From an uncultured Candidatus Saccharibacteria bacterium (GTDB taxonomy: Bacteria > Patescibacteriota > UBA1384 > CAILIB01): a DNA stretch of 64,000 bases. Numbering within the stretch: the stretch's first letter is position 1; each line of letters begins with the position of its first letter. The position numbers and the translations under genes were made by a program. Below are positions 44,871 through 60,273 of the stretch, in pieces. The stretch lies in NCBI GenBank assembly GCA_964593885.1, contig CAZQKK010000002.1, positions 286,990-350,989 of the forward strand, in the 5' to 3' direction. The notes under the pieces were generated by a model that had not been told where the DNA came from, did no database searches, and was given only the letters and a program-made list of their open reading frames with translations.

Positions 44871-46010
44871 CTACTCTGCAGCTGACAGGAGACGCCTGGC
44901 GATTTCTCGGGCAGCATCAGGTTTTGCAAACTTGGAGATGGTTTTCCTGAGAGACTGACGCCTTTCTTCAGAGGCGTGGAGCTCTTGGATAACCGCAAGA
45001 AGTTCAGCTGCTGAGAGGATTGTTTCATTCAAGACTATGGCGGCATCATCTTTACCGAGAACCTGGGCGTTTTCCCACTGGTGGTTCTGGGCAGCGGTTG
45101 AGAGGGGAATAAGGATACTGGCAGCCTTGCTAGCAGCAAGCTCTGCAATGATGCCACCTGCCCTACTAATAACCAGCTCAGCGTGCTGGAGGAGCGGTGC
45201 CATATCGGTAATGCTTGGGAGGAGGTGGAGTCTATCCTGTAACTCCTCAGGCAGTTCAAGTTTCCTCTCAAGGAGCTTGGTGTAGTCTAGGTGACCACAC
45301 TGCTGGACAATTTGAAAGGTCTTGAGGAGCTCTCCCCAGTTTTCAGCTACGAGGTTGTTGATCTTTCGCGAACCCTGGCTTCCGGTAATGAAGAGGAGTG
45401 GCAGCTCAAGTGACAGCTTCACGTCCTCGCCAATCTCGGTGGGAAATGCGAGCTCACTAAAGAAGCTCTTTCGTACCGGCTGACCGATGTACTCAAGCTT
45501 GTGCTGGGGAAGCTTCCTGTACACACTCTTTGGGAAAGCGGTAAAAATCTTGCGCGAAATCTTTGCTAGCAACCTGTTTGCAAGCCCTGGCACCACGTCG
45601 CTCTCGTGGCTGTAGACGGGAACCTTGAGCATCTTTGCCACCATTGCAACCGGCACGCTGACAAATCCTCCCTTACAGAAGACGACATCCGGCTTCACAT
45701 CTTTCATGAGCTGCAGGGCGTCGCTGAACCCTTGGCCAAACTTGAAGAGCTCACCAAGGTGCTTGTGGGTGGCAAAACGGTTGAGCTTGCCTGCGGTAAT
45801 GGCATGGCGCGAAAAGTCAAGGCCGCTCATGTCGAGGGCAGGTGAGGTGAGATCTGAGAGCAGCCCCGCGTAGGAGAGGTTGGCTTCGCCATCAAGCTCG
45901 TGCACTGCTTCCATCACCGCAACAAGTGGTGAGATGTGTCCCATCGTCCCACCTCCCACAAAGAGGATGTGCTTAGGTGGCTTTTCGGTTTGTTCTAGCT
46001 CGCTACTCAT
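44871..46010 (-). CDS. murG: undecaprenyldiphospho-muramoylpentapeptide beta-N-acetylglucosaminyltransferase
   Basis: ILFVGGGTMGHISPLVAV G-loop; GT28 N- and C-domains. Confidence 0.85.
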   Translation of the reverse strand: MSSELEQTEKPPKHILFVGGGTMGHISPLVAVMEAVHELDGEANLSYAGLLSDLTSPALDMSGLDFSRHAITAGKLNRFATHKHLGELFKFGQGFSDALQLMKDVKPDVVFCKGGFVSVPVAMVAKMLKVPVYSHESDVVPGLANRLLAKISRKIFTAFPKSVYRKLPQHKLEYIGQPVRKSFFSELAFPTEIGEDVKLSLELPLLFITGSQGSRKINNLVAENWGELLKTFQIVQQCGHLDYTKLLERKLELPEELQDRLHLLPSITDMAPLLQHAELVISRAGGIIAELAASKAASILIPLSTAAQNHQWENAQVLGKDDAAIVLNETILSAAELLAVIQELHASEERRQSLRKTISKFAKPDAAREIARRLLSAAE

Positions 46011-47182
46011 GTGGTTTTCTTCTGCATTCGTTTTGTAACCTGCCTTTTCTGGTGGTCATCCTCACTACCCTTTGCTTTCTGGTAGCGAGAGATGTTGAGG
46101 ATAACCCCCATCGCACAGAGGGTCACAATGATGTTGGTTCCGCCGTAGCTCACAAACGGGAGCGGAATACCCTTCAGGGGAGCCAGCTGGAGCATTGCTG
46201 CAAGGTTGAGCATAGACTGGTAGGTTAGCCAGGTTGCGATACCGGTTACCAGGAGTTGTGAGAAGACATCGGGAGCACGCGAGGCAACCTGGTAGCTTCG
46301 GTAGAGGATGAAGCTAATCAGTCCAATGAGGAGAGCCGAAATAATGAACCCTAGTTCCTCAACGATAATCGCAAAAATAGAGTCTGTTTGAGGCTCAGGT
46401 AGGAACAAGCGCTTTTGCTTACTCTCACCAAACCCGAGACCAAACCACCCGCCAGACCCGATGGCAATTGCGATGTTGTCACTGTGGTACACCGCAGCAT
46501 CTTTAGTCTGTGTACTGGTGGTTGTATCAGCCTGGTTCTGATTGAGGAAGGCAACGATACGTGCACGTCGGTAGGGCACCGAAAGCGCTCCCGCCAACCC
46601 AACTGCAGCAATGAGGAGTGTTACCCCTAGGTGCTTCCAGCTCATACCTGCCGTCCAGTACACAGCTGCTGCTGAAACCAGCATTACGGTGAGGGTACCA
46701 AAATCTGGTTGCTGGAGCATTAGGAACGAAATCACCGCACAGATCCCCACAAAGGGGATGAAGGTTTCTTGCAGGTTGCCAACCTTATCCTTACGCTGGC
46801 AGAACCACGCGGCAAGGTAGGCGAGGAAGGTAAACTTCACCACTTCAGCAGGCTGGAAGCTGAACCCTCCTACCACAATCCAGCGGTGGGCACCGTTGAT
46901 GTTTCCCTTACTGAAAAGGAACACGCTCACGAGGAGGAGGATGCTTGCCAGGAGCATCCACTTTGCATTCTTCTGCCACACCTTGTAGTCAACGTTTGAG
47001 AGGAACGACATGAGCCCAAGTCCCAGGATCACAAATACCAGGTGTCGCTTAAAGAAGAAGGCTGGGTCTGCCTGGGGAAGGGTGAGCCCCTTGATCACCG
47101 AGGCTGAGTAGACCATCACCAACCCAAAGAGGGTGAGGGTAACCACACCAATAGCAAGGTAGGTGTCAATGTTTCGTCTCAC
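46007..47182 (-). CDS. ftsW: SEDS-family peptidoglycan polymerase FtsW
   Basis: 10-TM SEDS topology and position between murD and murG; GTG start. Confidence 0.85.
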   Translation of the reverse strand: MRRNIDTYLAIGVVTLTLFGLVMVYSASVIKGLTLPQADPAFFFKRHLVFVILGLGLMSFLSNVDYKVWQKNAKWMLLASILLLVSVFLFSKGNINGAHRWIVVGGFSFQPAEVVKFTFLAYLAAWFCQRKDKVGNLQETFIPFVGICAVISFLMLQQPDFGTLTVMLVSAAAVYWTAGMSWKHLGVTLLIAAVGLAGALSVPYRRARIVAFLNQNQADTTTSTQTKDAAVYHSDNIAIAIGSGGWFGLGFGESKQKRLFLPEPQTDSIFAIIVEELGFIISALLIGLISFILYRSYQVASRAPDVFSQLLVTGIATWLTYQSMLNLAAMLQLAPLKGIPLPFVSYGGTNIIVTLCAMGVILNISRYQKAKGSEDDHQKRQVTKRMQKKTT

Positions 47183-47183
47183 C

Positions 47184-48593
47184 TTACGCCTTTCCGCTTA
47201 CCACGCGCGTAAATGCATCGCCACGTTCTTTGTAGTTTGCGTAGGGACTGGCACTTGCGGCAGAGGGGGACAGGAGGAGTACATCGCCAGGCTTGAGTTC
47301 ATCACCAAGGGCCGCAATAAGCTCTTCCATTACACCAGTTGCATCGGTACTCACCGCCTGTACTACTTTCACCTCACTACCCAACGCCAGTACCTTGGAA
47401 GCAAGGCTTCCGGAAGACTCTCCGGGAAGCACTAGGAGCGATACACATCGCTTGGCAATCTCTGGCGCGAGGGAGGTATAGTCCTGCCCCTTATCCTTCC
47501 CTCCTGCCACGAGGTGAATTCGCTTACCCTCAAATGCCTCCAGAGCTACCAGGCAAGACTCGGGGGTGGTTGCGATACTGTCATCATAGGCCAAGATCCC
47601 CCGCTCGTTTTCAACCACCGAGAGGCGGTGTTCAAGACCGGTAAAGGCAACAATTTCTTTCTGCATGACGCTAGGGGAGACGTGGAACAGGGAAGCTACC
47701 AAGATTGCTGGAAGGATGTTTTCTAAGTTGTGTTTTCCTAAGAGCTTTCTCCCTGCGAGGCTCAGCGAGTCAACAGAACCCCCCACGGCGAAGAAGGCAA
47801 CTTCGCTCCCCTGCTGCTCGTCCACCCAAGCCGTCTCCATTCCTGGGAGGCTGCGATGGTACCTGATGATGCGCGCTGGAGCTGCAGCGATGAAGCTCTC
47901 CATCTCTGGGTACTCGGCGTTGATAATCGCCACATCACCTTCACGCTGGTGGGTAAGAATGTTTCTCTTTGCCTCCCGGTAGGCGGCCAGGTTTGCATGG
48001 TGATCGAGGTGGTCCTGGCTAACGTGGAGTACCACGGCAATGTTGGGACTCTTGGTTAGCCCATCAAGCTGGAAGCTTGAGAGCTCCAGGACAACAATGT
48101 CCTCTGGCGCGAGATTCTCAAGGAATGAAAAAGGATCAACCCCAATGTTTCCCGCTAAGTACACCTTCTTCTCTGGAAACGCCGCTTTAAGGATTGCTGT
48201 AATCAGCGTTGAGGTAGTCCCCTTCCCCTTGGTGCCGGTAACCCCTACGGTCTTTGCCTGGCAGAGATCGAGGAAGAGCTGGGTTTGCGAGGTGAGTACC
48301 ACCCCACGTGAGGCTGCAGCTTGGAGGTTTGGGTGGTGAAAAGGAATTCCCGGACTCCTGAAGACTAGGTTGAAGCTTTCAAGGTCTTCGGTAACCTCAG
48401 GGCGCTCCTCAAAGCTGAGCTTCTCAGCGGCATCAGGGTACTTGGCGAAGAGTTCTTCTCGCTTCGAGCCATCCCTATCCCTCACCACCACCTCCAAACC
48501 GTGCCTCAGCAGAAACCCAACCAGCTCGTGGTGGTTGGCGCCGTAGCCCAGGACACAGGCTCTCGATGATGCTGGAAAAGGGAGATCGTGCAT
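47184..48593 (-). CDS. murD: UDP-N-acetylmuramoylalanine--D-glutamate ligase
   Basis: VGVTGTKGKGTTSTL P-loop; ATG 48593 immediately after the mraY stop. Confidence 0.85.
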   Translation of the reverse strand: MHDLPFPASSRACVLGYGANHHELVGFLLRHGLEVVVRDRDGSKREELFAKYPDAAEKLSFEERPEVTEDLESFNLVFRSPGIPFHHPNLQAAASRGVVLTSQTQLFLDLCQAKTVGVTGTKGKGTTSTLITAILKAAFPEKKVYLAGNIGVDPFSFLENLAPEDIVVLELSSFQLDGLTKSPNIAVVLHVSQDHLDHHANLAAYREAKRNILTHQREGDVAIINAEYPEMESFIAAAPARIIRYHRSLPGMETAWVDEQQGSEVAFFAVGGSVDSLSLAGRKLLGKHNLENILPAILVASLFHVSPSVMQKEIVAFTGLEHRLSVVENERGILAYDDSIATTPESCLVALEAFEGKRIHLVAGGKDKGQDYTSLAPEIAKRCVSLLVLPGESSGSLASKVLALGSEVKVVQAVSTDATGVMEELIAALGDELKPGDVLLLSPSAASASPYANYKERGDAFTRVVSGKA

Positions 48594-48595
48594 GG

Positions 48596-49618
48596 TTAAG
48601 TGAGCTGGAGGAGCGATAGTACCAAGCCGGCGGCACAACCCACCGCTGAGATTACCCAGAACCTCATGGTCACCTTTGTCTCTGGCCAGCCAATAGCCTC
48701 AAAGTGGTGGTGAATGGGGGCCACCAAAAATACCTTTCGCTTGAATACCTTCTTTGAGAATATTTGAATCACCGTTGAGGCTCCTTCAAGGAATGGGATG
48801 AAGAGAATGAAAGGAAGGAGTACCACTGAGTTGGTGAGGAAAGCCAAAATGGGGAGCGTCATCCCCAACGCCATACTTCCGGTATCCCCCATGAAGAACC
48901 GTGCGGGATTAATGTTGAACCAGAGGAAGGCCAGGAGCGAGCCAAGCATGGTGGCGCAGAAAATGGCCAGGTGCACCTTCCCCTGTGAGAGGGAGATGAA
49001 GGTGAAGACAAAGAAGGCAAACATACCCACTCCCCCAGCGAGACCATCAAGGCCGTCTGTTTGGTTCATACTGAAGCCAACAAAAATAACGGTGAGGATA
49101 AAGAGCGGTACGTACCACCAGCCAATCACGAAGCTTCCAAGTCCTGGGATACCGAGGGTGTTCCAGCCCAGCTTCTCGTAGAACCACCAAGATCCTACTA
49201 CTGCAACCGCGGCGTAGATGATGAACTTATGCCAGAACCGGAGGCCTCCCCCATTTGATCCTTTCCCCATCACATTCATGATGTCATCTACTGCCCCAAT
49301 AAAGCCTGCACAGACGAGGGTAAAGAGCGGGAGGTACGTCTCTCCCCTATCAAGGTTGAAGGCGAGGGTGAAAATTGCCGTGGTTACCCAGAAAAGTAAC
49401 CCTCCTCCTACCGGTGTCCCTGCCTTACTGGCATGGAGCTTGGCAAATATGGGGACAGCCTTCCCATCAACGCCTGTTTGGCGAAGCTGCTTTCCTAAGC
49501 TATTACGGTAGAGGAAGTTGGTGAGGATGGGGGCGAGAATGAAAGCAACAAGAAAAGCTGCGGTGACGTTAAGGGTAACCTGGAGAACGTCTGAGGTAGC
49601 GATGGTAATGGCACTCAT
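48596..49618 (-). CDS. mraY: phospho-N-acetylmuramoyl-pentapeptide transferase
   Basis: 10-TM MraY with AGTPVGGG loop; ATG 49618 chosen, because the track start at 49681 overlaps murF by 44 nt. Confidence 0.85.
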   Translation of the reverse strand: MSAITIATSDVLQVTLNVTAAFLVAFILAPILTNFLYRNSLGKQLRQTGVDGKAVPIFAKLHASKAGTPVGGGLLFWVTTAIFTLAFNLDRGETYLPLFTLVCAGFIGAVDDIMNVMGKGSNGGGLRFWHKFIIYAAVAVVGSWWFYEKLGWNTLGIPGLGSFVIGWWYVPLFILTVIFVGFSMNQTDGLDGLAGGVGMFAFFVFTFISLSQGKVHLAIFCATMLGSLLAFLWFNINPARFFMGDTGSMALGMTLPILAFLTNSVVLLPFILFIPFLEGASTVIQIFSKKVFKRKVFLVAPIHHHFEAIGWPETKVTMRFWVISAVGCAAGLVLSLLQLT

Positions 49619-49637
49619 AGGAAAATTGAAGAGGTAG

Positions 49638-50903
49638 TTACTGCCAGAAAGCTCCCTGACGAACGAGGAGTTTCCCCGCATCTTCTGGTTTCGCCATGAG
49701 CTCTTTCACAATTCGCTCCAAGAACATACCGTTCTGCGAAGCTTTAATGTAGATAACATCGTGGCGATGCACCAGCTGAAAGAGATGGTCTTTGAGCTCA
49801 ACAGGTGTTGGGAAAGCAATCATCTGGGTGGGCGACATCCCCGCATCGCGAGCGGCGCGCAGCATATCGTTTGCGTACTTGCCTACAGCGATGAAGAAGG
49901 TAGCCCGCTTAGCAGCCTCTGCCGCAACCTCACGGTGTGAGTCTAGGGCGTACTCGCCAAGCTCATTCATACTACCAAGAATTGCTACCTTTCGCCGCTT
50001 TCCAGCGTAAGCTTCAAGCACCTGTAAACCAGCCTTCACCGCCTCGGGCGAGGAGTTTGCCGTATCGTCAATGATCGTCATCTCATTCTTGCCTGCGATG
50101 AGCTTTCCCCTTCCCGGTGGGAGGGTATAGTTTGCCACTCCCTTGTTGAGCTGCTTTACCTTCATGCCTAGGTCACTACCAACTGAGAGAGCTGCCAAAA
50201 TTGGAAGTACCTGGTAGTGCGCCAGCACGTGGGTCTGCACGGTTTCTTCCTCCTTGCCACTGGTGTAGCTGAGCTCCAACCCTTCGGCATTCATCTTGGT
50301 AGTTTTTGGAGATACACCAGCCTTTGCGCCTTTGCCATACCACTTCACGTTTGACACACCCTTAAGCTCTCGTACCTGGTGAGGGTCTTCAGCGTTGGCC
50401 AGAATCCAACCACCTTCTCTTAGGGTACTGTGGAGCCTCAGGGTTTCCCTCACCATCACCTCCTCGGTGCCGTACTGCTCCATGTGGACGGGAACAATGG
50501 TGCAGTAAACTGCTACATCGGGAGCGATCCTCGTCACAAGAAAATCAGTCTCCCCTTCAATATCTGATGAGTACTCAAGCACGTAGATAGGCTTATCTTC
50601 TGGCTTGTAGCGTGGTTTCGCTACCAGTGACCTGAAGATCACCTCAACCCAGCCAAATACCCCAGAAGGGGGATCTTGAAATCCTAAGAGTGAAAGGGGA
50701 ACACCACTATCGGTGGCAAGGTTACCAAACGTTTTCCTCACCGGCCTCCCGCTCTCAGCTAGTACCTCAGCGAGGGCTTCTTTCGTGGAGGTTTTCCCGA
50801 CACTCCCTCCAACCGCCACCACAAATGGCCTCTCACCCCGATATATCCGGAGTGCACCCATCCACATGGTTCTGATGATCAGGAACTTGAGAAAGCTTCG
50901 CAT
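49638..50903 (-). CDS. murF: UDP-MurNAc-tripeptide--D-Ala-D-Ala ligase MurF (short N-terminus)
   Basis: VAVGGSVGKTSTKE P-loop; GNLATDSGVPLSLL (cf. GNLNNEIGVPLTLL); C-terminal IIDDTANSSPEAV and VAILGSMNELG. Confidence 0.8.
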   Translation of the reverse strand: MRSFLKFLIIRTMWMGALRIYRGERPFVVAVGGSVGKTSTKEALAEVLAESGRPVRKTFGNLATDSGVPLSLLGFQDPPSGVFGWVEVIFRSLVAKPRYKPEDKPIYVLEYSSDIEGETDFLVTRIAPDVAVYCTIVPVHMEQYGTEEVMVRETLRLHSTLREGGWILANAEDPHQVRELKGVSNVKWYGKGAKAGVSPKTTKMNAEGLELSYTSGKEEETVQTHVLAHYQVLPILAALSVGSDLGMKVKQLNKGVANYTLPPGRGKLIAGKNEMTIIDDTANSSPEAVKAGLQVLEAYAGKRRKVAILGSMNELGEYALDSHREVAAEAAKRATFFIAVGKYANDMLRAARDAGMSPTQMIAFPTPVELKDHLFQLVHRHDVIYIKASQNGMFLERIVKELMAKPEDAGKLLVRQGAFWQ

Positions 50904-50911
50904 CTGAATCC

Positions 50912-52699
50912 CTAACGGTTAGTTGGCGGTATCTGGTAGTAATTCAAGAGGAAGTTTGCCACTCGTGCAAATAGTGGTACGGCAGTAGTCTCGGCAAACT
51001 GACCAACTTTTGCAATGTTTGGCTGGTCAACCTTGGTGAGCACCAGGAATTCTGGGTCATCTACTGGTCCAAACCCTACAAACGAGTGCACGTATGCATC
51101 AAGGTACCCTGGTCCCTCTGGATTTGGCACCTGTGCGGTTCCGGTTTTCCCCGCTATCTTGTAGCCGTTTACTGAAGCCCGCTTGTGCCCATGCTGCACT
51201 ACCGAGGTGAGCATAACTTTGAGCTGTTCAACCACCTCTGGCTTGAGAATTCTCGGCCCAACCTCTGGGGCAATTGCCTCGCGCTCCCCGTCTGCCCTCA
51301 CCACAGTTTTAACCACGTGTGGCTTCACCACGCTGCCGTCACCGGCGAGAGCGGTATAGCCCGTAAGCACCTGGAGAGGCGTGGTGGCGACACCCTGTCC
51401 GAAGGCAACCGTTGCGCGGTCAATTGCTTTCCATGAATTCACCGGTTTAAACGTACCAGCTATCTCATTCCTCAGGTCAATGCCGGTTCGCTTCCCAATC
51501 CCAAAGCTACTCAGGTAGTCGGCAACCATCTGGTTTCCCATCTTGTTTGCTAGCCATACCATCGCCACGTTGTCTGAATTTACGAGAACGTCGGTCATGC
51601 TCTCATCACCGTAAGCTCGTTTAAGAGCAGTATTGATGGTGTAGCCATCTACCACCACACTTCCTGGAAAGGTATCTCTCGTAGCTGGAGTAACTACCCC
51701 TTCATTAATAGCTGCCGCCATGACGAGTGGCTTAAAGATACTTCCCGGCTCCCACTGCTTGCTAATCGCTGGGTTATCAAACAGTCCAATCTGATCTTTT
51801 GCGATAGTTCTGAAAGCATTGGGGTCGTAGGCAGGGGTACTTGCCATACCCTGAATCTCCCCAGTTTTTGGGTTCATCACGATAATGCTTCCGCCCTTAG
51901 CCTCAGAACGCGCTACCTCCTCAGTAAGCTGCTGCTCCAGGTAGTACTGGATGTTCCTGTCTATGGTGAGCTCGTAGGTATTTCCATCTTCTCCCTTAAT
52001 GGATCCAGATTCACCGAGGAGGTTTCCAATACTGTCCTTCTCCAGCCTCACCTTTCCAATGAACCCTCTGAGCTCTTGGTCGTACTGTCCTTCAAATCCG
52101 TACTGGCCCTTTCCTCTATCGTCCACAAATCCCATGAGCTGACCCGCAAGCTGTCCCTCGGGGTAGACCCGTTGGTACTCACGCACAAAGAAGAACCCAT
52201 TAATTGAGTAGAGGATACCACCTTGGGCAGCATCAAAGTTGAGAACACGGGTGCTCCTATCTGGATCAATTTCCTGTGCAAGTTTGTTGAAAGCATCCTG
52301 GATATCTTCAAGCTGATCCTTAGTGAGACCATGGGCGAAAGGATCCATGTAGAGGCTATCGCGCTTGAAGCTGGTGAGGAGCTTCTCCCTATCCAGTTGG
52401 AGCATCGAGGCCAGGAGGTCTGCGTACCTTTCCTTGTCCTTGACGTTATTTGGCGTCGCCGAGAGTGCGTACCGTTCAACGCTCGTTGCTGCAAGGGTAG
52501 CCTTTCCAGCAGAAAGATCTTGGAGGTACACCGATCCACGCCGCGGCAGGACATCTCGCTCAACATTCTGCTGCTTCTCAGCTTGGGCAACGTGAACGCT
52601 GTGCTCGAGAACGCTGGTACTAAAAAGTTTGCCCACGAGTACGAGGGCAAAGGCGAGCATGATGATGGTAAAGAAGCGGATCCGACCAGACTCTACCAT
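50912..52699 (-). CDS. ftsI: class B PBP transpeptidase FtsI
   Basis: N-terminal TM anchor; SIFKP (SxxK), SDN, KTGT motifs. Confidence 0.85.
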   Translation of the reverse strand: MVESGRIRFFTIIMLAFALVLVGKLFSTSVLEHSVHVAQAEKQQNVERDVLPRRGSVYLQDLSAGKATLAATSVERYALSATPNNVKDKERYADLLASMLQLDREKLLTSFKRDSLYMDPFAHGLTKDQLEDIQDAFNKLAQEIDPDRSTRVLNFDAAQGGILYSINGFFFVREYQRVYPEGQLAGQLMGFVDDRGKGQYGFEGQYDQELRGFIGKVRLEKDSIGNLLGESGSIKGEDGNTYELTIDRNIQYYLEQQLTEEVARSEAKGGSIIVMNPKTGEIQGMASTPAYDPNAFRTIAKDQIGLFDNPAISKQWEPGSIFKPLVMAAAINEGVVTPATRDTFPGSVVVDGYTINTALKRAYGDESMTDVLVNSDNVAMVWLANKMGNQMVADYLSSFGIGKRTGIDLRNEIAGTFKPVNSWKAIDRATVAFGQGVATTPLQVLTGYTALAGDGSVVKPHVVKTVVRADGEREAIAPEVGPRILKPEVVEQLKVMLTSVVQHGHKRASVNGYKIAGKTGTAQVPNPEGPGYLDAYVHSFVGFGPVDDPEFLVLTKVDQPNIAKVGQFAETTAVPLFARVANFLLNYYQIPPTNR

Positions 52700-52708
52700 G
52701 GGTGGGAC

Positions 52709-53098
52709 TTAGTTACCGGTTGAAACTCCTGCTACCTCCCCTTTTTCAACAAACTCTGCATCTTTAATTGGCTGCATTCCCTCTTTGCTGGCGGTGTTCT
52801 GAATTTCTTGGATGGTTTGGGCGCGCTTGGCTTCAAGTTTCAGCTGTTCAATCTCCTGCCCAACCTTTCCCACCTCTTTCCTAAGCTGGTTCTGGGTGTA
52901 GGCTTCGGTTGAACTTGAGCTTGAACGGGTGAGCATCACCACGGCGAGAACTACCAAGATGAGCATGCCAAAGTAGCGCGCAGCCATTGGACCAAATGTT
53001 ACCTTGCGGGTGTTGGTTCGAATAGTTTGACGCGCAACAGGTCTCCTACTTGCTACTACGTATCCTCGAGTTTTGGAATAGCGGGCTCGCATGATCAA
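52709..53098 (-). CDS. FtsL-like division protein (basic N-tail, TM, coiled coil)
   Basis: Position between mraZ and ftsI; single TM helix plus coiled coil; TTG/ATG start ambiguity. Confidence 0.5.
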   Translation of the reverse strand: MIMRARYSKTRGYVVASRRPVARQTIRTNTRKVTFGPMAARYFGMLILVVLAVVMLTRSSSSSTEAYTQNQLRKEVGKVGQEIEQLKLEAKRAQTIQEIQNTASKEGMQPIKDAEFVEKGEVAGVSTGN

Positions 53099-53118
53099 AT
53101 CCTCCTAACGTGCAGTAC

Positions 53119-53550
53119 TTAGATGCCGATTTCTTTGAGCGCCTGGCTAAAGTCTGCTGTCCCCTGGTCAATGCCACCCTGGTACTGATCCCACAGCTTG
53201 CTGTCCCATACTTCGATATGGCTGTGGAGTCCGGCGAGAGTTACATTTTTTTGTAAGGAAGCAAACTGCCTAAGGTACGGTGGCACAACCACCCTCCCGG
53301 CTTTATCCAGTTCTACGTCTACCGCACCGGCTAAGGTTTGGCGAACATAGGCGCGAGCGTTTGGATCACTCTGAGGGAGCGATGCCAACTTCGTCGCAAT
53401 CTCAACCCAAACTGAGGCAGGATATAGTTTGAGGGAGCCGTCAAACCCCTTGGTAATAACGGCTCCATCGGCCAACTTCGGACGCCACTTCACCGGAACC
53501 TGCAACCGTCCCTTGTCGTCAATGTTGTGATTGTGTTCACCAATGAACAT
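53119..53550 (-). CDS. mraZ: transcriptional regulator MraZ
   Basis: Duplicated MraZ fold with DDKGRLQVP and a second DKAGRVVVP motif. ATG 53550 (MFIGEHNHN...) chosen, because the track's GTG 53592 would overlap the repeats below. Confidence 0.8.
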   Translation of the reverse strand: MFIGEHNHNIDDKGRLQVPVKWRPKLADGAVITKGFDGSLKLYPASVWVEIATKLASLPQSDPNARAYVRQTLAGAVDVELDKAGRVVVPPYLRQFASLQKNVTLAGLHSHIEVWDSKLWDQYQGGIDQGTADFSQALKEIGI

Positions 53551-53587
53551 CAAGGTGTGGTTACTGGCTAGATGGTGAAGTAGTCGC

Positions 53588-53614
53588 CCCACTTTGCCCC
53601 ACTTTTTCCCACTT
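53588..53614 (-). promoter_or_regulatory. candidate MraZ operator: three direct AAGTGGG (plus-strand CCCACTT) repeats at exact 10-bp phasing
   Basis: CCCACTTTGC CCCACTTTTT CCCACTTCTC on + (AAGTGGG x3 on the mraZ strand), between the putative mraZ promoter and its start codon. This matches the reported GTGGG/TGGGN 10-bp-spaced MraZ boxes. Confidence 0.5.
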
Positions 53615-53621
53615 CTCGCCT

Positions 53622-53650
53622 AGTATGCGACTAGTTTAGGAAGGTGTCAA
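53622..53650 (-). promoter_or_regulatory. putative dcw-cluster promoter TTGACA-17-CATACT
   Basis: On the - strand, TTGACA (53645-53650 on +) and CATACT (53622-53627 on +) with a 17-nt spacer, just upstream of the MraZ-box repeats. Confidence 0.45.
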
Positions 53651-53798
53651 CACATCTGCACCACAAAAAAAGCCGACTCCGTGAGGAGCCGGCTTTTCGC
53701 CAGGTCTAGAAACCTAGTTTGTTTCGTCTGTGGCACTCCCTTTACCTGTAAGTATTGAAATCCCTGCGGACAGGAGCGAGAAGATGTAGAATGAGACT

Positions 53799-56700
53799 AT
53801 GACGGTTGAGCACCTCAAATTAGAAACCGACGAAACCCCTCTCGCACACATTGAAGAAGGTTCTACTTCTCGTGATCAAACTCAACTGGATGAAACTCAG
53901 ATTGAAGATGAAACTCCGCAGGAACGCGAACTCAAGAGGCTCAACGCAATAGTTGAAGAAAAGCTTGCGGTCTTCGCTCAGCAGGAAATTCTCACCCCAG
54001 CAGCCACTCCTCCTACCAAAGTTGCTCATCGTTCGCTCCCCGATCGACTCGCTGGTGTTCCTATTCGTGATAAAGAGGTCATCCCCAGGAAAGAAAGCAC
54101 CACAACACACCTTGCCCGAACCTACCGGTTTCGAAAGCACAGAATCAAAAAAGGATCTGAGGCAGAGCAGCTAGCTTTCCAGCTCACCGGTGTTGCGGTG
54201 GATAGAGACTTTGAGGAACTTAAGCAAAACTCCCCTCACTACAAACGAGATCTACAAAAACTCATTAGTAAAGGCTACAAGTATTCCTATTCCCGCGAAG
54301 AAAGTTGGCACCAAGAGAAGCCATTTGAGCCCACAGACAACTTCTTAAAGTACGAGGAGCGTGAGTTGAAAGATTCCGAGCTCACGAATATCCCTAAAGT
54401 TGCTGATCAGGTAGAAAACAGTACCGAAAAAATCAAACTCCTCAGCAGCTTCGGGTTAAGCGAAGCAATCCTAACCTCTCTCGACAGGCGCAGAAGCTAT
54501 GCCGGTGAAGATAGACTCGCGGAACTTGTTTCATTCCTCAATACCGAGGAGAGTATCGCACTGGTACGAAAGCTAGTGTCGCATGGCATTTCCTTTAACC
54601 ACATCAATTCGGGGAATAGCTACAACTCTGATGCAAACCGTTTTAGCACTATTGCAGAGGTACTCGCTGATGCTTCTGAAAACATTCTCCCTGTACTTGA
54701 AGCTGGATCAAACCACATTGCAGAGGCAAGAAAGCTTTCTGAACTAGACCAGGAGAACGGTAGCTTCACCCTCTTCATGAATCTCCTCAAGTTCTTTAAC
54801 GAGGGTGGATCACCTGAAGAGCTAGCGAGTATGTCTACCTACATTAGTACCCACCCACCGCGAGATTATAGGGGTGAGTTAGAGCCTCAAATGAAACTTC
54901 GTGAGCTCACCCAAACTTCTCTCCAGCACACTCAAGCTCTCAAGCAGGTGGGGCTCTTTGAAGAGTTCTTAGCCGCCCAATACCTCTATGCCTCCCTACC
55001 TCTCTATGGTTCAGGTGATTTTCAGGATCTCACCCACTTCCTCACCGAAGTTGCAGACGGAAGATTTGGTACCCGAGATGAGGTAGCAGCAAGCATCAAA
55101 CGTTATGCTGCCGTTACCGGCGAGCATACGCTCTCACCTCGTAGTGCACACAGCTTTCTCTACCAGCTAGACAATGAGCCAACACTCATCCCAGCGCTCG
55201 TTGCCTGCAGTGAGTTGAAAGCTGCTGGAGCCTTAGAAGGAGATGACCTATTCACCGCTGCAAACCTTGCACCCTATGTTACTAATCCAAACTGGGTTGC
55301 TACCTACACCAACATCCATGCATTTGCCGCAGAGACCGTCAGTAAGCGAACAAGCAGACCGATCTTAGAGAATATTAGGCAACTTTCGGAAAAACCTGAG
55401 GTTATCGAGCGCGTTACCAGTGAGCCTTTCTGTCACTTTATTACCCCAGGCTACCAAAATCAGTACACAAACATTGAGGACCTCAATCACTACACGAGGC
55501 TACCTAATGCAGAAGTTGCTGCAAGAGCAATTCTTAAACGTGTTAGCAACACTCACGAGAGATACAAAGAACTCTCAACCTACTCCCAGGAAGTGTACCG
55601 TAACCCAGATGTGTTCTCTGATCCGGAAATTACTGAGGCTCTCATCTCCCACCCGTACTATAACCTTGCCACTGATGGTATCAACGCCTACTTCAAGGAT
55701 GCGGGACAAACACCCGAAACCCTGAAAACGTGTCTTGATTACATGGAAACGTTTGGCGTAGTAACTGCAGGTAATATCCTGAAACTCAACGCAAACCCTG
55801 ATGGAAAGCAGTACGGCGAACTTGTTGCAGGCTACCTTGCAACTCATGGAAAAGAGCAAGCCGATACCCTCTACAGCAACTTTGCCCAGGCATTCATCCC
55901 TCATGCCACCACAGAGGCACACCTAGAAAGGATTCTTGCCATCTTTAATCGAAGACTCCCAGGTGATTTCGTCATGAACAACAGGGAGCTCCTCCTAGAA
56001 GTTCCCGGTGAGAAGTTTGAAACGTACCTCAATGTCAGCGAGAGACTCAGATCTTCTTGTTGCCAAGAGCTCATCCGGGTTGAGAACGAGCTCATGCCAG
56101 TAGTGCTCGCAAGTGATAATCCTATGGCAGCCTACGAGAAAATTGAAAAGGTATTCCTCCGCAACAACCTTCCCTACCTTGGGAAAGCTTACAGCGTTTT
56201 CAACATTCTCTACCCACCAGCAGTCCTCAACGGCAAGCTCAACGAGAAGAGCAGCCCCGTACTGCAAAAGGCCTCAACTCGTGAGCGCTACCACATCCTC
56301 TACAATGATCTGGTCAAGGTGCAGGTTGCCTCAGGAAACCGTTCACTCGAAAACTACGCATCGCTCCTCGCCCAATACGAAGGAGTACTCACAACTGCGG
56401 AAGAAAAAAGCTTCGAAAACCTGTCTGAAGAAGAAACTACTCAGCTTCGTAACTTTGCCGAAATGCTAGGGGTACTCTTTGATAACAGTACCTACAAACG
56501 AATGTTCTCAGAAGCTGGTACATCCGAGACTTCACAAGTAGACCTCAGGGACAGCCTCAACCAGCTCCGCCAAGACCTAGGGGTACCAGAAGGCGGAAGC
56601 ATTATCCAGCGCCTCCACGAGATGTTCCTTCGCGCGAGCAACTCCGCCAACTTCTCCGAGTTAGCCGCCGCCATGCGGGAATCACGCCAGACTGCTGACG

Positions 56701-58112
56701 CAAAGAACCGTAGTTTCAGCCAAGAACATCGCAAGCTTGGCGTCCTTGGCGAAGGCACGCTCGTCAAAGGTTTCAGCGCTGCTCACATCTCGAGCATCCT
56801 CCAAAACGGTTCTGTGGCAAAAGAATTCCTTGGTGGCGGATCCAGTTCTGACATGACCCCCCTGGATACCGACCTTGAGATGATCCATCCTAGTGAAGAA
56901 TCCTCAGATGGTGCCCGGGTGCTTTCGCGTTCAAAGATGGCAAGTGGTTACGGCGAGCTAAAGATGTTCATGTCAGAGCCTCCTGAAGGCTACGAGCTCT
57001 TCGAAACCCTAGGAGCAGGCCACATGGGGATTAGAACAGGCTTTCCACTCACCATGATCGATGGCTTAATCTGCAGCGATGACCCTATCCACCCAAGTGT
57101 GATGGACTACAAGGTAGCTATCACTGAAAATGGCTACTACATCCCAATCTACTCGGAAGATGGCAGCCTCATTTTCACACCAGAGGAGTTTGACAACCTC
57201 AAGCAAGCATACCGAGGCCTCAAGCGTTTCAACGCCCCTCCACTTGAGCCGCAGCGCGGAGCTTTCATTACAGACAGCTCTACCCCTGGTGAGCTCATGA
57301 AAGATCAGGAACAGGTTTCTCAAACTTTCAACTCCATTCAAGCGACAATCAGCGAGATCCTGACAAGGCACGGGGTAACCCTCAGGTCTCAAGATGACCA
57401 CAGTCTCACCGGAGCAGAGCTTGAGAGTACCGGTTCCACCGGTAGAGGCACCAACAAACCTGGTGACTACGACTTTGACCTCTCGCTGAGGCTCGACCCC
57501 CTCGATTTCCAGAAACTCACCGCAGCAGATATCACCCAGGAACTCCGCGATGCCTTCAATCCGGAATCAGAGATGAACAGCAATCCGGGCGATGCCACCA
57601 CCCAGTACCGTTTCTTTGGCGCAAAGGTAGGTGAAGTTACTGCCGATATCGACATAGCGTTTACCCAGAAATCTGAACTCCAGCTCTTTGCCACCCACCA
57701 GGCAATCCAGGAGCGTCTCTCGTCTATTGCAGACCCAGGAATACGCAGCCAAGTTGCATCAGACATTATCTGGATAAAGAAGCAGCTCTCTGAAAGAAAC
57801 GTATACAAAAAGGGCAACCACGCAGGTGATGAAAACCAAGTTGGAGGTCAGGGTGGTTTGGGAGGTGTCGGAGTAGAAACCTGGATCCTCAACCACAACG
57901 GCTCTACCCGAGAAGCTATGGCAAGTTTTGCCTCAGCAGCTTACAACCCAGATGGCACCCTTAAGCCACTTGAAGAGTTCCAGGTAGCCTACCCAATCAT
58001 TGATGCCGGAGTGAACCTCCGCAACAAACGCCACGACAACTACGTGAGAATTCTCTCAGAAGAGAGCTACGCAAAGATGGCAGCCTTCTGCCGGGACATG
58101 GTGAGAAGATAA
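53799..58112 (+). CDS. giant hypothetical protein (1437 aa) with C-terminal Pol-beta-superfamily nucleotidyltransferase-like domain
   Basis: Single uninterrupted ORF; acidic N-terminus; no Walker A and no TM helices. Near the C-terminus, GSTGRGTNKPGDYDFDLSL (GS-x9-DhDh) and about 50 aa later TADIDIAF form the NTase fold catalytic signature. A Gly-rich segment GGQGGLGGVGVETWIL follows. Confidence 0.6.
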   Translation: MTVEHLKLETDETPLAHIEEGSTSRDQTQLDETQIEDETPQERELKRLNAIVEEKLAVFAQQEILTPAATPPTKVAHRSLPDRLAGVPIRDKEVIPRKESTTTHLARTYRFRKHRIKKGSEAEQLAFQLTGVAVDRDFEELKQNSPHYKRDLQKLISKGYKYSYSREESWHQEKPFEPTDNFLKYEERELKDSELTNIPKVADQVENSTEKIKLLSSFGLSEAILTSLDRRRSYAGEDRLAELVSFLNTEESIALVRKLVSHGISFNHINSGNSYNSDANRFSTIAEVLADASENILPVLEAGSNHIAEARKLSELDQENGSFTLFMNLLKFFNEGGSPEELASMSTYISTHPPRDYRGELEPQMKLRELTQTSLQHTQALKQVGLFEEFLAAQYLYASLPLYGSGDFQDLTHFLTEVADGRFGTRDEVAASIKRYAAVTGEHTLSPRSAHSFLYQLDNEPTLIPALVACSELKAAGALEGDDLFTAANLAPYVTNPNWVATYTNIHAFAAETVSKRTSRPILENIRQLSEKPEVIERVTSEPFCHFITPGYQNQYTNIEDLNHYTRLPNAEVAARAILKRVSNTHERYKELSTYSQEVYRNPDVFSDPEITEALISHPYYNLATDGINAYFKDAGQTPETLKTCLDYMETFGVVTAGNILKLNANPDGKQYGELVAGYLATHGKEQADTLYSNFAQAFIPHATTEAHLERILAIFNRRLPGDFVMNNRELLLEVPGEKFETYLNVSERLRSSCCQELIRVENELMPVVLASDNPMAAYEKIEKVFLRNNLPYLGKAYSVFNILYPPAVLNGKLNEKSSPVLQKASTRERYHILYNDLVKVQVASGNRSLENYASLLAQYEGVLTTAEEKSFENLSEEETTQLRNFAEMLGVLFDNSTYKRMFSEAGTSETSQVDLRDSLNQLRQDLGVPEGGSIIQRLHEMFLRASNSANFSELAAAMRESRQTADAKNRSFSQEHRKLGVLGEGTLVKGFSAAHISSILQNGSVAKEFLGGGSSSDMTPLDTDLEMIHPSEESSDGARVLSRSKMASGYGELKMFMSEPPEGYELFETLGAGHMGIRTGFPLTMIDGLICSDDPIHPSVMDYKVAITENGYYIPIYSEDGSLIFTPEEFDNLKQAYRGLKRFNAPPLEPQRGAFITDSSTPGELMKDQEQVSQTFNSIQATISEILTRHGVTLRSQDDHSLTGAELESTGSTGRGTNKPGDYDFDLSLRLDPLDFQKLTAADITQELRDAFNPESEMNSNPGDATTQYRFFGAKVGEVTADIDIAFTQKSELQLFATHQAIQERLSSIADPGIRSQVASDIIWIKKQLSERNVYKKGNHAGDENQVGGQGGLGGVGVETWILNHNGSTREAMASFASAAYNPDGTLKPLEEFQVAYPIIDAGVNLRNKRHDNYVRILSEESYAKMAAFCRDMVRR

Positions 58113-59826: not shown

Positions 59827-60273
59827 ATGCAATCGACCCCTGACATCACCGTTGGCTTCTCATCCGGAGCACACGACCTTCTCGCCAACTTTGCTGGCAA
59901 CTACGTGAGTAGCAACCAGCGCGCCTCCATGGCCCAGTGCAACTCGGGCGATAGCCCTTGCTGCTTTGGCTCCATCCAACGCAGCTACGCCAGCCCTGCT
60001 ATCACCATGTTTGGTGCACCCGCTGAAGATGTTTCCGAGGCAAGCTTCTTTGTTGAAGCTACCGCCTGTTCCCACCAAGCCAATTTCTCCCTGGTTACCA
60101 GAGAGAAGGAAGGTATCAGGAGAGTTAAGCTGACTTACAACCCCAACCTCACTGGGAGAACCTGGAAGGTCATCTACGGAATGCTCCTGAGGGAAATCTG
60201 GCTTGCCGGCCTCAAAGAGCGATCAAAAGCGCAGCAAAATCCAGACCTCCCGACGTTTCGTCGGGGTTGGTAA
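59827..60273 (+). CDS. hypothetical protein (148 aa)
   Basis: ATG behind GGGAGGAGG RBS; terminator downstream; no motif. Confidence 0.4.
   Translation: MQSTPDITVGFSSGAHDLLANFAGNYVSSNQRASMAQCNSGDSPCCFGSIQRSYASPAITMFGAPAEDVSEASFFVEATACSHQANFSLVTREKEGIRRVKLTYNPNLTGRTWKVIYGMLLREIWLAGLKERSKAQQNPDLPTFRRGW

What the first reader, a model, noticed from the sequence alone, without database searches (positions are those of the whole stretch)
53799..58112. Giant 1437-aa cytoplasmic protein carrying a C-terminal Pol-beta / CD-NTase-like nucleotidyltransferase core
This single 4.3-kb ORF sits between the dcw cluster and glyQS. It has no TM helices, no P-loop, a strongly acidic N-terminus and more than 1100 aa of non-repetitive sequence with no recognisable family. 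Its last roughly 300 aa contain the GS-x9-D-h-D-h ... h-D-h-D carboxylate triad of the Pol-beta nucleotidyltransferase fold (GSTGRGTNKPGDYDFDL ... TADIDIAF), then a Gly-rich loop (GGQGGLGGVGVETW). The cGAS/DncV-like, MNT and Cid1/OAS-like nucleotide-transferring enzymes share this fold. A stand-alone giant protein ending in such a domain is not a standard arrangement. It could be a novel nucleotide-signalling or nucleotide-modifying effector of the kind seen as orphan giant proteins in small-genome bacteria.
Basis: partly seen in the sequence, partly recalled or inferred. Interest (0 to 1): 0.7.

Follow-up and report, generated by a model that had tools for sequence, protein, structure and literature searches.

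The report
Giant ART-plus-nucleotidyltransferase family protein
The 1437-residue gene is real and its tail does fold like a nucleotide-adding enzyme, but it is not an orphan: it belongs to a very large, so far unnamed family of giant bacterial proteins whose conserved end joins an ADP-ribosyltransferase-like domain to that enzyme.

Summary
The ORF 53799..58112 (+, 1437 aa) exists as described. It is a real gene under purifying selection: a syntenic ortholog is 76% identical end to end (dN/dS 0.08-0.30).

Three points were missed or wrong:
1. It is not an orphan. At least 776 clusters at 50% identity match at E<=1e-10. Nearly all are giant proteins (median ~1500 aa) with the same C-terminal ~710-aa module.
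3. The N-terminal half evolves fast but is homologous at profile level to the largest subgroup.

In Clostridia the gene rides mobile elements and is sometimes split in two. No Pfam, NCBIfam, PADLOC, PHROG or PDB sequence match exists, and no neighbour is conserved.

Best reading: an active two-centre (ART-like plus template-independent NTase) enzyme acting on nucleic-acid ends or nucleotides. The substrate is unknown.

The parts
53799..58112 (+). Whole gene, 1437 codons plus stop
   Evidence: ORF list and translation. A full-length ortholog P0073 is 76% identical and colinear in a syntenic contig. dN/dS over the whole gene is about 0.15.
53799..53933 (+). Acidic N-terminal tail, residues 1-45 (net charge -11)
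   Evidence: Residue counts. It is the least conserved part against the ortholog: residues 1-120 are 52% identical with dN/dS 0.30.
53799..55967 (+). Fast-evolving N-terminal half, residues 1-723. Only the ortholog is detectable by phmmer.
   Evidence: phmmer against 245 collected family proteins hits only P0073. dN/dS is 0.15-0.30. Across the family, N-terminal BLAST similarity vanishes once the module falls below about 50% identity.
54123..55223 (+). Residues 109-475: the part of the N-terminal half that is homologous, at profile level, to the N-termini of the largest subgroup of giants
   Evidence: hhalign of window+P0073 against a 60-sequence alignment drawn from the 75-member N-terminal cluster: probability 95.3%, E 2.2e-8, 311 columns.
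55968..56723 (+). Conserved all-alpha domain, residues ~724-975, with the F786-x-R-N789-N-x-P792-x-x-G-K796 motif. This is the start of the family-wide C-terminal module.
56751..57233 (+). ADP-ribosyltransferase-fold domain, residues ~985-1145 (Tpt1/KptA- and DarT-like)
57276..57374 (+). Long linker helix, residues ~1160-1192, leading into the NTase core
   Evidence: Helix 258-286 of the model of residues 905-1437. It is poorly conserved in sequence.
57396..57683 (+). Pol-beta nucleotidyltransferase catalytic lobe, residues ~1200-1295, with G1212-S1213, D1225, D1227 and D1283/D1285
57684..58109 (+). Helical second lobe of the NTase, residues ~1296-1437, with K1327, Y1336-K1337 and the Gly-rich loop GGQGGLGGVGVETW (1349-1362, nt 57843-57884)

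Best explanation
The gene encodes a cytoplasmic member of a very large, unnamed family of giant bacterial proteins.

Shown:
- The family-defining unit is the C-terminal ~710 residues. It consists of a conserved helical domain, an ADP-ribosyltransferase-fold domain closest to the nucleic-acid-directed ARTs Tpt1/KptA and DarT, and a bilobal Pol-beta nucleotidyltransferase of the PAP / TUTase / class-I CCA / OAS / CD-NTase type.
- The NTase keeps every catalytic residue.
- The N-terminal ~720 residues are a rapidly diverging but selected region.

Inferred:
- The NTase is active. It binds NTP-Mg2+ through G1212-S1213, D1225, D1227 and D1285, with K1327 and Y1336-K1337 from the helical lobe. It transfers nucleotides without a template.
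- The most likely acceptor is the 3' end of an RNA, or less likely a DNA.
- The adjoining ART-like domain acts on or recognises the same substrate. It either uses NAD+ on a terminal phosphate or a base, or only binds the nucleotide or nucleic acid.
- The variable N-terminal half provides targeting or regulation.
- Its carriage on Clostridial mobile elements suggests a role in genetic conflict rather than core metabolism. In this genome, however, it is a stable chromosomal gene.
For: - Real, selected gene: colinear 76% ortholog in a syntenic contig. dN/dS is 0.08-0.10 in the module and 0.15-0.30 in the N-terminal half.
- Family size and architecture: 776 representatives at E<=1e-10 and 589 at E<=1e-30. 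Of the 149 giants listed besides the ortholog fragment P0002, 128 exceed 1200 aa, and the match is always at the C-terminus. All 80 metagenome loci have the module at the end of one ORF of 665-3078 aa; the 13 that run off a contig end include most of the shortest.
- NTase fold and catalytic set.
- The ART-like domain has about ten polar residues conserved at 95% or more, as expected of an active or ligand-binding site.
- The best NTase matches are RNA 3'-end transferases: CCA-adding enzyme, PAP, Cid1, URT1, TUT1/7.
- Stand-alone action: no neighbour family occurs in more than 8 of 80 loci.
- Fast N-terminal divergence with residual profile homology.
- Mobile-element carriage in Clostridia: serine recombinase, Mob_Pre, TnpV and the adjacent PADLOC candidate PDC-S13. 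Split and fused forms are close relatives.
Against: - The ART assignment is by predicted fold only. No Pfam, PDB-profile or hhalign match is significant. The canonical H-Y-E, R-S-E or R-H-R-R residues are not evident. A Lys (K990) appears to sit where ARTs have His or Arg, so NAD+ use is unproven.
- No RNA-binding body or tail domain like that of CCA-adding enzymes follows the NTase.
- No NAD/ADP-ribose-processing genes (macro, NADAR, 2H) or RNA-repair genes are linked.
- The conflict role rests on Clostridial context only. In the window the gene sits among housekeeping genes.
Confidence: 0.4

Rival explanations
1. A sensor-coupled signalling synthase of the cGAS / OAS / CD-NTase kind. The variable N-terminal half senses a ligand or an invader. 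The NTase then makes a cyclic or 2'-5'-linked oligonucleotide, possibly from or together with an NAD+-derived moiety supplied by the ART-like domain. That product acts on an unlinked effector.
For: - Pfam SMODS is hit weakly by 3 of 54 homologues, best E 4.5e-4.
- A long helix precedes the NTase core, as in OAS and cGAS.
- A fast-evolving half fits a sensor.
- The Clostridial copies lie on mobile elements next to a PADLOC defence candidate.
Against: - No effector, Cap2/Cap3, HORMA/TRIP13 or receptor gene is linked. No neighbour family is shared by more than 8 of 80 loci.
- No PADLOC model matches any family member.
- RNA-end transferases score higher than CD-NTases.
- No family member was found in viral contigs, and nothing ties the window copy to a defence island.
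Confidence: 0.2
2. A protein-modifying effector. The NTase AMPylates or otherwise nucleotidylates a protein, and the ART-like domain ADP-ribosylates a protein. The target is either in a host or partner cell, if the organism is an epibiont, or in a recipient cell after transfer of the Clostridial element.
For: - Some named family members come from Patescibacteria.
- Pol-beta NTases and ARTs are both recurrent protein modifiers in conflict systems of mobile elements (PMC5512222).
- The large variable N-terminal region resembles effector targeting regions.
Against: - No signal peptide or TM segment and no linked secretion genes.
- The closest ART matches are nucleic-acid enzymes, not protein ARTs.
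- The NTase is of the bilobal PAP/CCA type. It is not the minimal MNT type, nor the GlnE/DrrA type that, from general knowledge, AMPylates proteins (PMC5512222).
Confidence: 0.15
3. A non-catalytic scaffold. The NTase and ART folds would be retained only as structural or binding modules, as in NF90/NF45, Utp22/NOL6 or MiD49/51.
For: - The ART-like domain lacks recognisable canonical catalytic residues.
Against: The complete NTase catalytic set (GS, DxD, third Asp, Lys, Tyr-Lys) is at least 95% conserved over 150 diverse members, and the window protein has all of it. In the inactive relatives these residues are typically lost (general knowledge of those families). dN/dS is 0.08 in this domain.
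Confidence: 0.05
4. An assembly chimera or spurious long ORF.
For: GC content is about 0.48 over the first two thirds of the gene against 0.52-0.54 in the last third and the flanks.
Against: - An independent metagenome carries a colinear 1439-aa ortholog in the same mraZ...glyS context, on two contigs.
- Purifying selection acts along the whole length.
- Eighty other loci show the same single-ORF architecture.
Confidence: 0.01

Closest known systems
Template-independent RNA nucleotidyltransferases of the Pol-beta superfamily (archaeal class-I CCA-adding enzyme, canonical poly(A) polymerase, Cid1/TUT/GLD-2 non-canonical PAPs)
   Same: - GS...DhD...D triad and Lys/Tyr-Lys on the helical lobe are conserved.
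   Different: - Sequence identity is only 12-15%. There is no Pfam NTP_transf_2 or PAP_assoc hit above threshold.
- No RNA-binding body/tail or RRM-like domain follows. The protein ends with the helical lobe.
- It is fused behind an ART-fold domain and about 1000 further residues.
CD-NTases (CBASS) and OAS/cGAS
   Different: No linked effector or Cap genes. No PADLOC or SMODS match for the window protein. The protein is several times larger and carries an ART-fold domain.
Tpt1/KptA RNA 2'-phosphotransferase and DarT DNA ADP-ribosyltransferase (ART superfamily)
   Same: - A strand-helix element 'hhKG...ILQNG' resembles the ART 'hhHG[ST]...I..G' element. This is a non-significant hhalign alignment to E. 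coli KptA residues 105-124.
   Different: - No detectable sequence relationship.
- No Tpt1 N-terminal winged-helix lobe, and no DarG-type macro-domain antitoxin nearby.
- Canonical catalytic residues were not identified. The invariant residues here are K990, D1023, D1025, E1066, H1075 and R1079.
Polyvalent proteins of phages and conjugative elements (Iyer et al. 2017, PMC5512222)
   Same: Very large multi-enzyme proteins that can combine ART and Pol-beta NTase domains. They occur on Firmicute mobile elements.
   Different: - The NTase described there is a minimal four-strand version, usually fused to ArdC-N and linked to T4SS genes.
- The family here has a fixed C-terminal tri-domain module, is mostly chromosomal in Patescibacteria-type contigs, and matched no PHROG or viral contig.

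Membership tests
Pol-beta nucleotidyltransferase superfamily | hG[GS]-x9-13-Dh[DE]h motif on the first strand-turn-strand | tested here: met
   G1212-S1213-x11-D1225-F-D1227-L. G, S and both D are invariant in 54 homologues and at least 95% conserved in 150.
Pol-beta nucleotidyltransferase superfamily | Third catalytic carboxylate on a later beta-strand | tested here: met
   D1285 is invariant and D1283 is at least 90% conserved, 58 residues after D1227. They lie on a strand of the model.
Pol-beta nucleotidyltransferase superfamily | Alpha/beta core fold superposable on solved members | tested here: met
   [not shown]
Pol-beta nucleotidyltransferase superfamily | Curated profile (Pfam NTP_transf_2) above the gathering score | tested here: not met
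   13.5-14.6 bits against a cut-off of 21 for the window protein. Best E-value among the 54 homologues is 1.2e-4, matched at E<=1 by 37 of them; the members scanned singly reached at most 17.2 bits.
Class-I CCA-adding enzyme | Head-neck-body-tail architecture with a tRNA-binding body and tail after the NTase | tested here: not met
   Only 209 of 436 residues of 4x4n align. The protein ends at the helical lobe (residue 1437).
Non-canonical PAP / TUTase (Cid1 family) | PAP-associated (PAP_assoc) domain recognisable by profile | tested here: not met
   No PAP_assoc hit for the window protein at E<=10, and none among the 25 families most often matched by the 54 homologues. The similarity is structural only.
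CD-NTase / CBASS | Operon with an effector and/or Cap2, Cap3, HORMA or TRIP13 genes | tested here: not met
   No neighbour family is shared by more than 8 of 80 loci. The window neighbours are the dcw genes and glyS. No PADLOC hit.
CD-NTase / CBASS | Sequence membership (Pfam SMODS / CD-NTase models) | tested here: not met
   No SMODS hit for the window protein. It is weakly hit in 3 of 54 homologues, best E 4.5e-4.
CD-NTase / CBASS | Product is a cyclic oligonucleotide | not testable with these tools
   Needs enzymology.
ADP-ribosyltransferase superfamily (Tpt1/KptA, DarT clades) | Split beta-sheet ART fold | tested here: met
   [not shown]
ADP-ribosyltransferase superfamily (Tpt1/KptA, DarT clades) | Catalytic signature (H-Y-E, R-S-E, or the Tpt1 R-H-R-R tetrad) | tested here: inconclusive
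   No significant sequence or profile alignment to any ART. The non-significant hhalign alignment puts K990 at the KptA His of the H-G-T element.
ADP-ribosyltransferase superfamily (Tpt1/KptA, DarT clades) | NAD+ as the ADP-ribose donor | not testable with these tools
   Needs biochemistry.
HEPN (RiboL-PSP) / fused MNT-HEPN | Pfam HEPN_RiboL-PSP above the gathering score, and an Rx4-6H motif | tested here: not met
   [not shown]

The most novel reading that the evidence does not exclude
The family is a widespread, undescribed class of two-centre enzymes. A divergent Tpt1/DarT-like ART domain and a PAP/CD-NTase-like NTase would act in sequence on one substrate. One possibility is ADP-ribosylating (or removing a phosphate from) an RNA or DNA end and then nucleotidylating it. 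Another is building an NAD+-derived oligonucleotide signal. A hypervariable N-terminal half would set target or trigger specificity. That would be a new nucleic-acid modification or immune-type system, common in Patescibacteria and on Firmicute mobile elements.
Probability: 0.2. Interest if true: 0.85.

Novelty: new variant of a known kind. Interest (0 to 1): 0.6.

Why it matters
Pol-beta NTases and ARTs are each central to RNA processing, toxin-antitoxin systems and antiviral immunity. A fixed fusion of the two, at the end of giant proteins, is absent from the 2025 Pfam copy, NCBIfam 20, PADLOC 2.0 and PHROGs v4.

The family is large: hundreds of 50%-identity clusters from groundwater, peat, rumen and human-gut metagenomes. 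Some named members come from Patescibacteria, whose giant proteins are mostly unexplained. Giving this one a testable catalytic core turns a 'hypothetical protein' into a defined enzymology problem:
- two predicted active-site regions with named conserved residues;
- a soluble ~710-aa module;
- a naturally split version.

If the conflict reading is right, it adds a new effector architecture. If it is housekeeping in small-genome bacteria, it points to an unknown RNA-end pathway.

Tried and rejected
- Whole-protein searches gave nothing: Pfam, NCBIfam, PADLOC and PDB by phmmer.
- The first word-indexed homologue search with the full 1437 aa returned only the query itself. That was a candidate-cap artefact. 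Searching the C-terminal 367 aa gave 71 hits, and the exhaustive phmmer gave hundreds.
- Genome-collection scan for relatives of the giant: none confirmed.
- Scan with GlyRS: 80 loci, none with a giant next to glyS. The insertion site is therefore lineage-specific, and the organism could not be named.
- Exact look-up of the window's neighbour proteins failed.
- PDB profile searches with the 533-aa module and with the ART-like domain alone: no meaningful hit.
- hhalign of the ART-like domain against E. coli KptA: not significant.
- Viral contigs: no relative. PHROGs: none.
- Metagenome scan with the N-terminal half: none.
- The afdb50 fold library was unavailable.
- Considered and rejected:
  - the small 51-59 aa upstream ORF or the L081 93-aa ORF being fused into the window's N-terminus;
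  - the Clostridial ~150-aa partner being part of the giants;
  - a conserved operon partner;
  - HEPN identity of the last lobe for the window protein;
  - identity with the minimal NTase of polyvalent proteins.
- Literature searches found no description of this architecture. This does not prove that none exists.


Full report
**1. The observation**

The ORF is present as stated: 53799..58112, + strand, ATG start, 1437 codons.

It lies between two housekeeping blocks.
- Upstream and divergent is a dcw cluster on the minus strand: mraZ, ftsL-like, PBP transpeptidase, a MurF-type ligase, mraY, murD, ftsW and murG.
- Downstream and convergent is a single-chain glycine--tRNA ligase (NCBIfam 601 bits against a cut-off of 312). 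Its stop codon is one base from the giant's stop.

- No hydrophobic segment looks like a TM helix; the highest 19-residue hydropathy mean is 1.2.
- There is no Walker-A pattern.
- There are no internal repeats and no tandem DNA repeats.
- Residues 1-45 have a net charge of -11.

The quoted motifs are all present. One register needs correcting. The family-invariant carboxylates are D1225, D1227 and D1285, so the motif reads GS-x11-DhD...D.

**2. The gene is real, not a chimera**

A cluster look-up turned up a 1439-aa protein from two JGI metagenome contigs. It aligns end to end with the window protein at 76% identity with four gap positions. It sits in the same context: Mur ligase, PBP, mraZ ... 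giant ... glyS, recO, fpg, cofD-like, padR.

Nei-Gojobori estimates give dS of about 0.96. dN/dS is 0.08-0.10 across residues 724-1437 and 0.15-0.30 across residues 1-723. The whole reading frame is therefore under purifying selection, the C-terminal half more strongly.

**3. It is not an orphan**

The first word-indexed search with the full protein returned only the query. Candidates are capped at those sharing the most words, and that hid the family.
- The last 367 residues alone gave 71 homologues, mostly proteins of about 550 aa.
- The exhaustive phmmer of residues 238-1437 against 1.84 billion cluster representatives gave 1000 hits at E<=1e-3, 776 at E<=1e-10 and 589 at E<=1e-30.
- The top of that list is the ortholog fragment P0002. 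Of the 149 other listed hits, 128 exceed 1200 aa and the median is 1493 aa. In nearly all of the listed hits the match covers window residues ~724-1430 and ends at the protein's C-terminus.
- A metagenome scan returned 80 loci. In every one the module is the C-terminal end of a single ORF of 665-3078 aa, and most of the shortest run off a contig end.

Named members are 'hypothetical protein' from Patescibacteria-group bacteria, a Pseudobdellovibrionaceae MAG and Clostridia. Several contigs come from human-gut metagenomes. Five giants scanned against Pfam had no hit.

So a 'giant protein ending in an NTase' is the normal architecture of a large unnamed family. The window protein is a typical member.

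**4. Anatomy of the conserved module (residues ~724-1437)**

Two AlphaFold2 models were built with family alignments.
- Residues 905-1437: 54 sequences, pLDDT 84.7, pTM 0.83.
- Residues 701-1150: 47 sequences, pLDDT 87.7, pTM 0.87.

(a) Residues ~724-975 are all-helical.
- They carry a highly conserved F786-x-R-N789-N-x-P792-x-x-G-K796 motif.

(b) Residues ~985-1145 form an alpha/beta domain with an ADP-ribosyltransferase fold.
- The first eleven hits of the second search are all ART-superfamily proteins.
- About ten polar residues are at least 95% conserved over 150 members: K990, E1009, D1018, T1020, D1023, D1025, E1066, H1075, R1079 and Y1114.
- This assignment is by predicted fold only. 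Pfam per-member scans, a PDB search with a domain profile, and hhalign against E. coli KptA gave nothing significant.
- The hhalign alignment is not significant, but it pairs 'KGFSAAHISSILQNGSVAKE' with KptA '[20 protein letters not shown]'. That would put K990 where ARTs have their first-strand His. I treat this as a lead, not a test.

(c) A long helix (~1160-1192) leads into the NTase.

(d) Residues ~1200-1437 are a bilobal Pol-beta NTase.
- Foldseek agrees, with Cid1 at E 1.7e-5.
- G1212, S1213, R1216, T1218, D1225, D1227, D1285, K1327, Y1336, K1337 and the GGxGGxGxE loop are at least 95% conserved, and all are present in the window protein.
- Pfam NTP_transf_2 matches the GS...DxD segment below threshold, in the window and in 37 of 54 homologues.
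- Pfam HEPN_RiboL-PSP matches the last helical lobe in 9 of 54 homologues. Two Clostridial ones score just above threshold. The window protein has no such hit and no canonical Rx4-6H, so I do not call this lobe HEPN here.

**5. The N-terminal half**

- Residues 1-723 hit only the ortholog when searched by phmmer against the 245 family proteins collected up to that point.
- Across 201 giants, N-terminal BLAST similarity tracks module identity. It is present in 98-100% of pairs whose modules are at least 70% identical. It falls to 48% of pairs at 50-59%, 10% at 40-49% and 1% at 30-39%.
- This looks like rapid colinear divergence rather than wholesale domain swapping.
- Profile comparison recovers homology between window residues 109-475 and the largest N-terminal cluster: probability 95.3%, E 2.2e-8.

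**6. Context**

- No neighbour gene family is shared by more than 8 of 80 loci. The protein therefore appears to act alone.
- A subgroup of loci has a 51-59 aa ORF, helical-looking by sequence, abutting or overlapping the giant's start. The window does not have it.
- In Clostridia the family sits on Tn4451-like mobilisable elements with a large serine recombinase, Mob_Pre, TnpV and Bro-N. There it is split into a ~1000-aa gene and an abutting or overlapping ~550-aa gene.
- Window residues 757-901 match the end of the ~1000-aa protein (E 9e-24).
- That ~1000-aa protein is homologous over 788 columns to the N-termini of single-ORF giants of about 1200-1560 aa, including L135 (ORF lengths). The split is therefore a recent fission.
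- A PADLOC defence candidate (PDC-S13) lies just upstream of the split pair, and a ~150-aa partner is conserved between two such elements.
- No family member matched PADLOC or PHROG models, and none was found in viral contigs.

**7. Interpretation**

Shown:
- a selected gene;
- a large family;
- a fixed helical + ART-fold + NTase module;
- an intact NTase catalytic set;
- a fast-evolving N-terminal half;
- mobile-element carriage in Clostridia.

Inferred:
- The NTase is active and template-independent.
- Its nearest structural relatives extend RNA 3' ends, and the nearest relatives of the adjoining domain act on RNA or DNA. The most economical model is therefore a two-centre enzyme working on nucleic-acid ends, with the N-terminal half giving specificity or control.

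I put this at about 0.4. The rivals are:
- a cGAS/OAS/CD-NTase-like signalling synthase, about 0.2. The fold is compatible, but no effector is linked.
- a protein-modifying effector, about 0.15.
- an inactive scaffold, about 0.05. The conserved catalytic residues argue against it.
- an artefact, about 0.01.

**8. Novelty**

Both folds are well known. The fixed combination at the end of giant proteins matches no curated family in the libraries searched. I found no description of it in the literature held here. The polyvalent-protein NTase of Firmicute conjugative elements is a different, minimal version fused to ArdC-N (PMC5512222).

I rate this a new variant of a known kind. It is of moderate to high interest for three reasons: the size of the family, its presence in Patescibacteria and gut Clostridia, and the clear experiments it allows.

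Noticed in passing
window 53587-53612: Three direct CCCAC(T) repeats spaced 10-11 nt (GTGGG on the mraZ strand) lie just upstream of mraZ. They resemble the repeated TGGGN operator bound by MraZ in E. coli (from general knowledge). The listed mraZ start at 53592 is probably too far upstream, because NCBIfam aligns from residue 14.
   Followed up: partly
window 53662-53697: An imperfect G+C-rich hairpin (GCCGACTCC...GGAGCCGGC), flanked by A7 on one side and T4 on the other, lies in the 206-nt spacer between mraZ and the giant gene. It looks like a bidirectional terminator, yet no gene reads into it from either side. The consensus scan did not list it.
   Followed up: no
window 44871-53592: The dcw cluster reads mraZ, ftsL, PBP, murF-type ligase, mraY, murD, ftsW, murG. 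No rsmH/mraW lies between mraZ and ftsL. There is only one MurE/F-type ligase, and it scores below the murF cut-off (199 against 288.6 bits).
   Followed up: partly
L081 4171-6047 (ortholog contig): The related contig has three extra genes between mraZ and the giant: 259 aa on the - strand with a hydrophobic N-terminus, and 224 aa and 93 aa on the + strand, both acidic or helical-looking. None has a counterpart anywhere in the window.
   Followed up: partly
L090 7414-7584; L092 4125-4280; L096 1212-1379; L098 4237-4398; L102 5335-5511; L103 1522-1692; L110 5291-5470; L138 2308-2475: A 51-59 aa ORF, helical-looking by sequence (consensus about MDKxEIQxKxxELxxIMxxYKxELGxLEKEL...EKLKEIR), ends at or overlaps the start of the giant gene in a subgroup of family loci. 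This suggests a translationally coupled small partner. It is absent from the window.
   Followed up: partly
L083 3868-10119; L087 2945-9883: On Clostridial Tn4451-like elements the family is split into ~1000-aa and ~550-aa genes. It is accompanied by a conserved ~150-aa protein (32% identity between two elements). In L083 a PADLOC candidate defence gene, PDC-S13, lies just upstream; its 165-aa ORF overlaps the end of the preceding Bro-N ORF.
   Followed up: partly
L086 6549-11737: In this contig the family module is spread over three ORFs in three different frames (964, 191 and 578 aa). This is either a real three-way split or indel errors in the assembly. A 1918-aa protein with no Pfam hit lies just downstream.
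   Followed up: partly
window 53500-56500: G+C is about 0.48 over the first two thirds of the giant gene, against 0.52-0.54 in its last third and in the flanking genes. This matches the weaker constraint on the N-terminal half.
   Followed up: no
window 59827-60273: A 148-aa ORF between glyS and recO has no Pfam or NCBIfam match. A gene of 149 aa occupies the same position in the related contig L081, but the two sequences were not compared.
   Followed up: no
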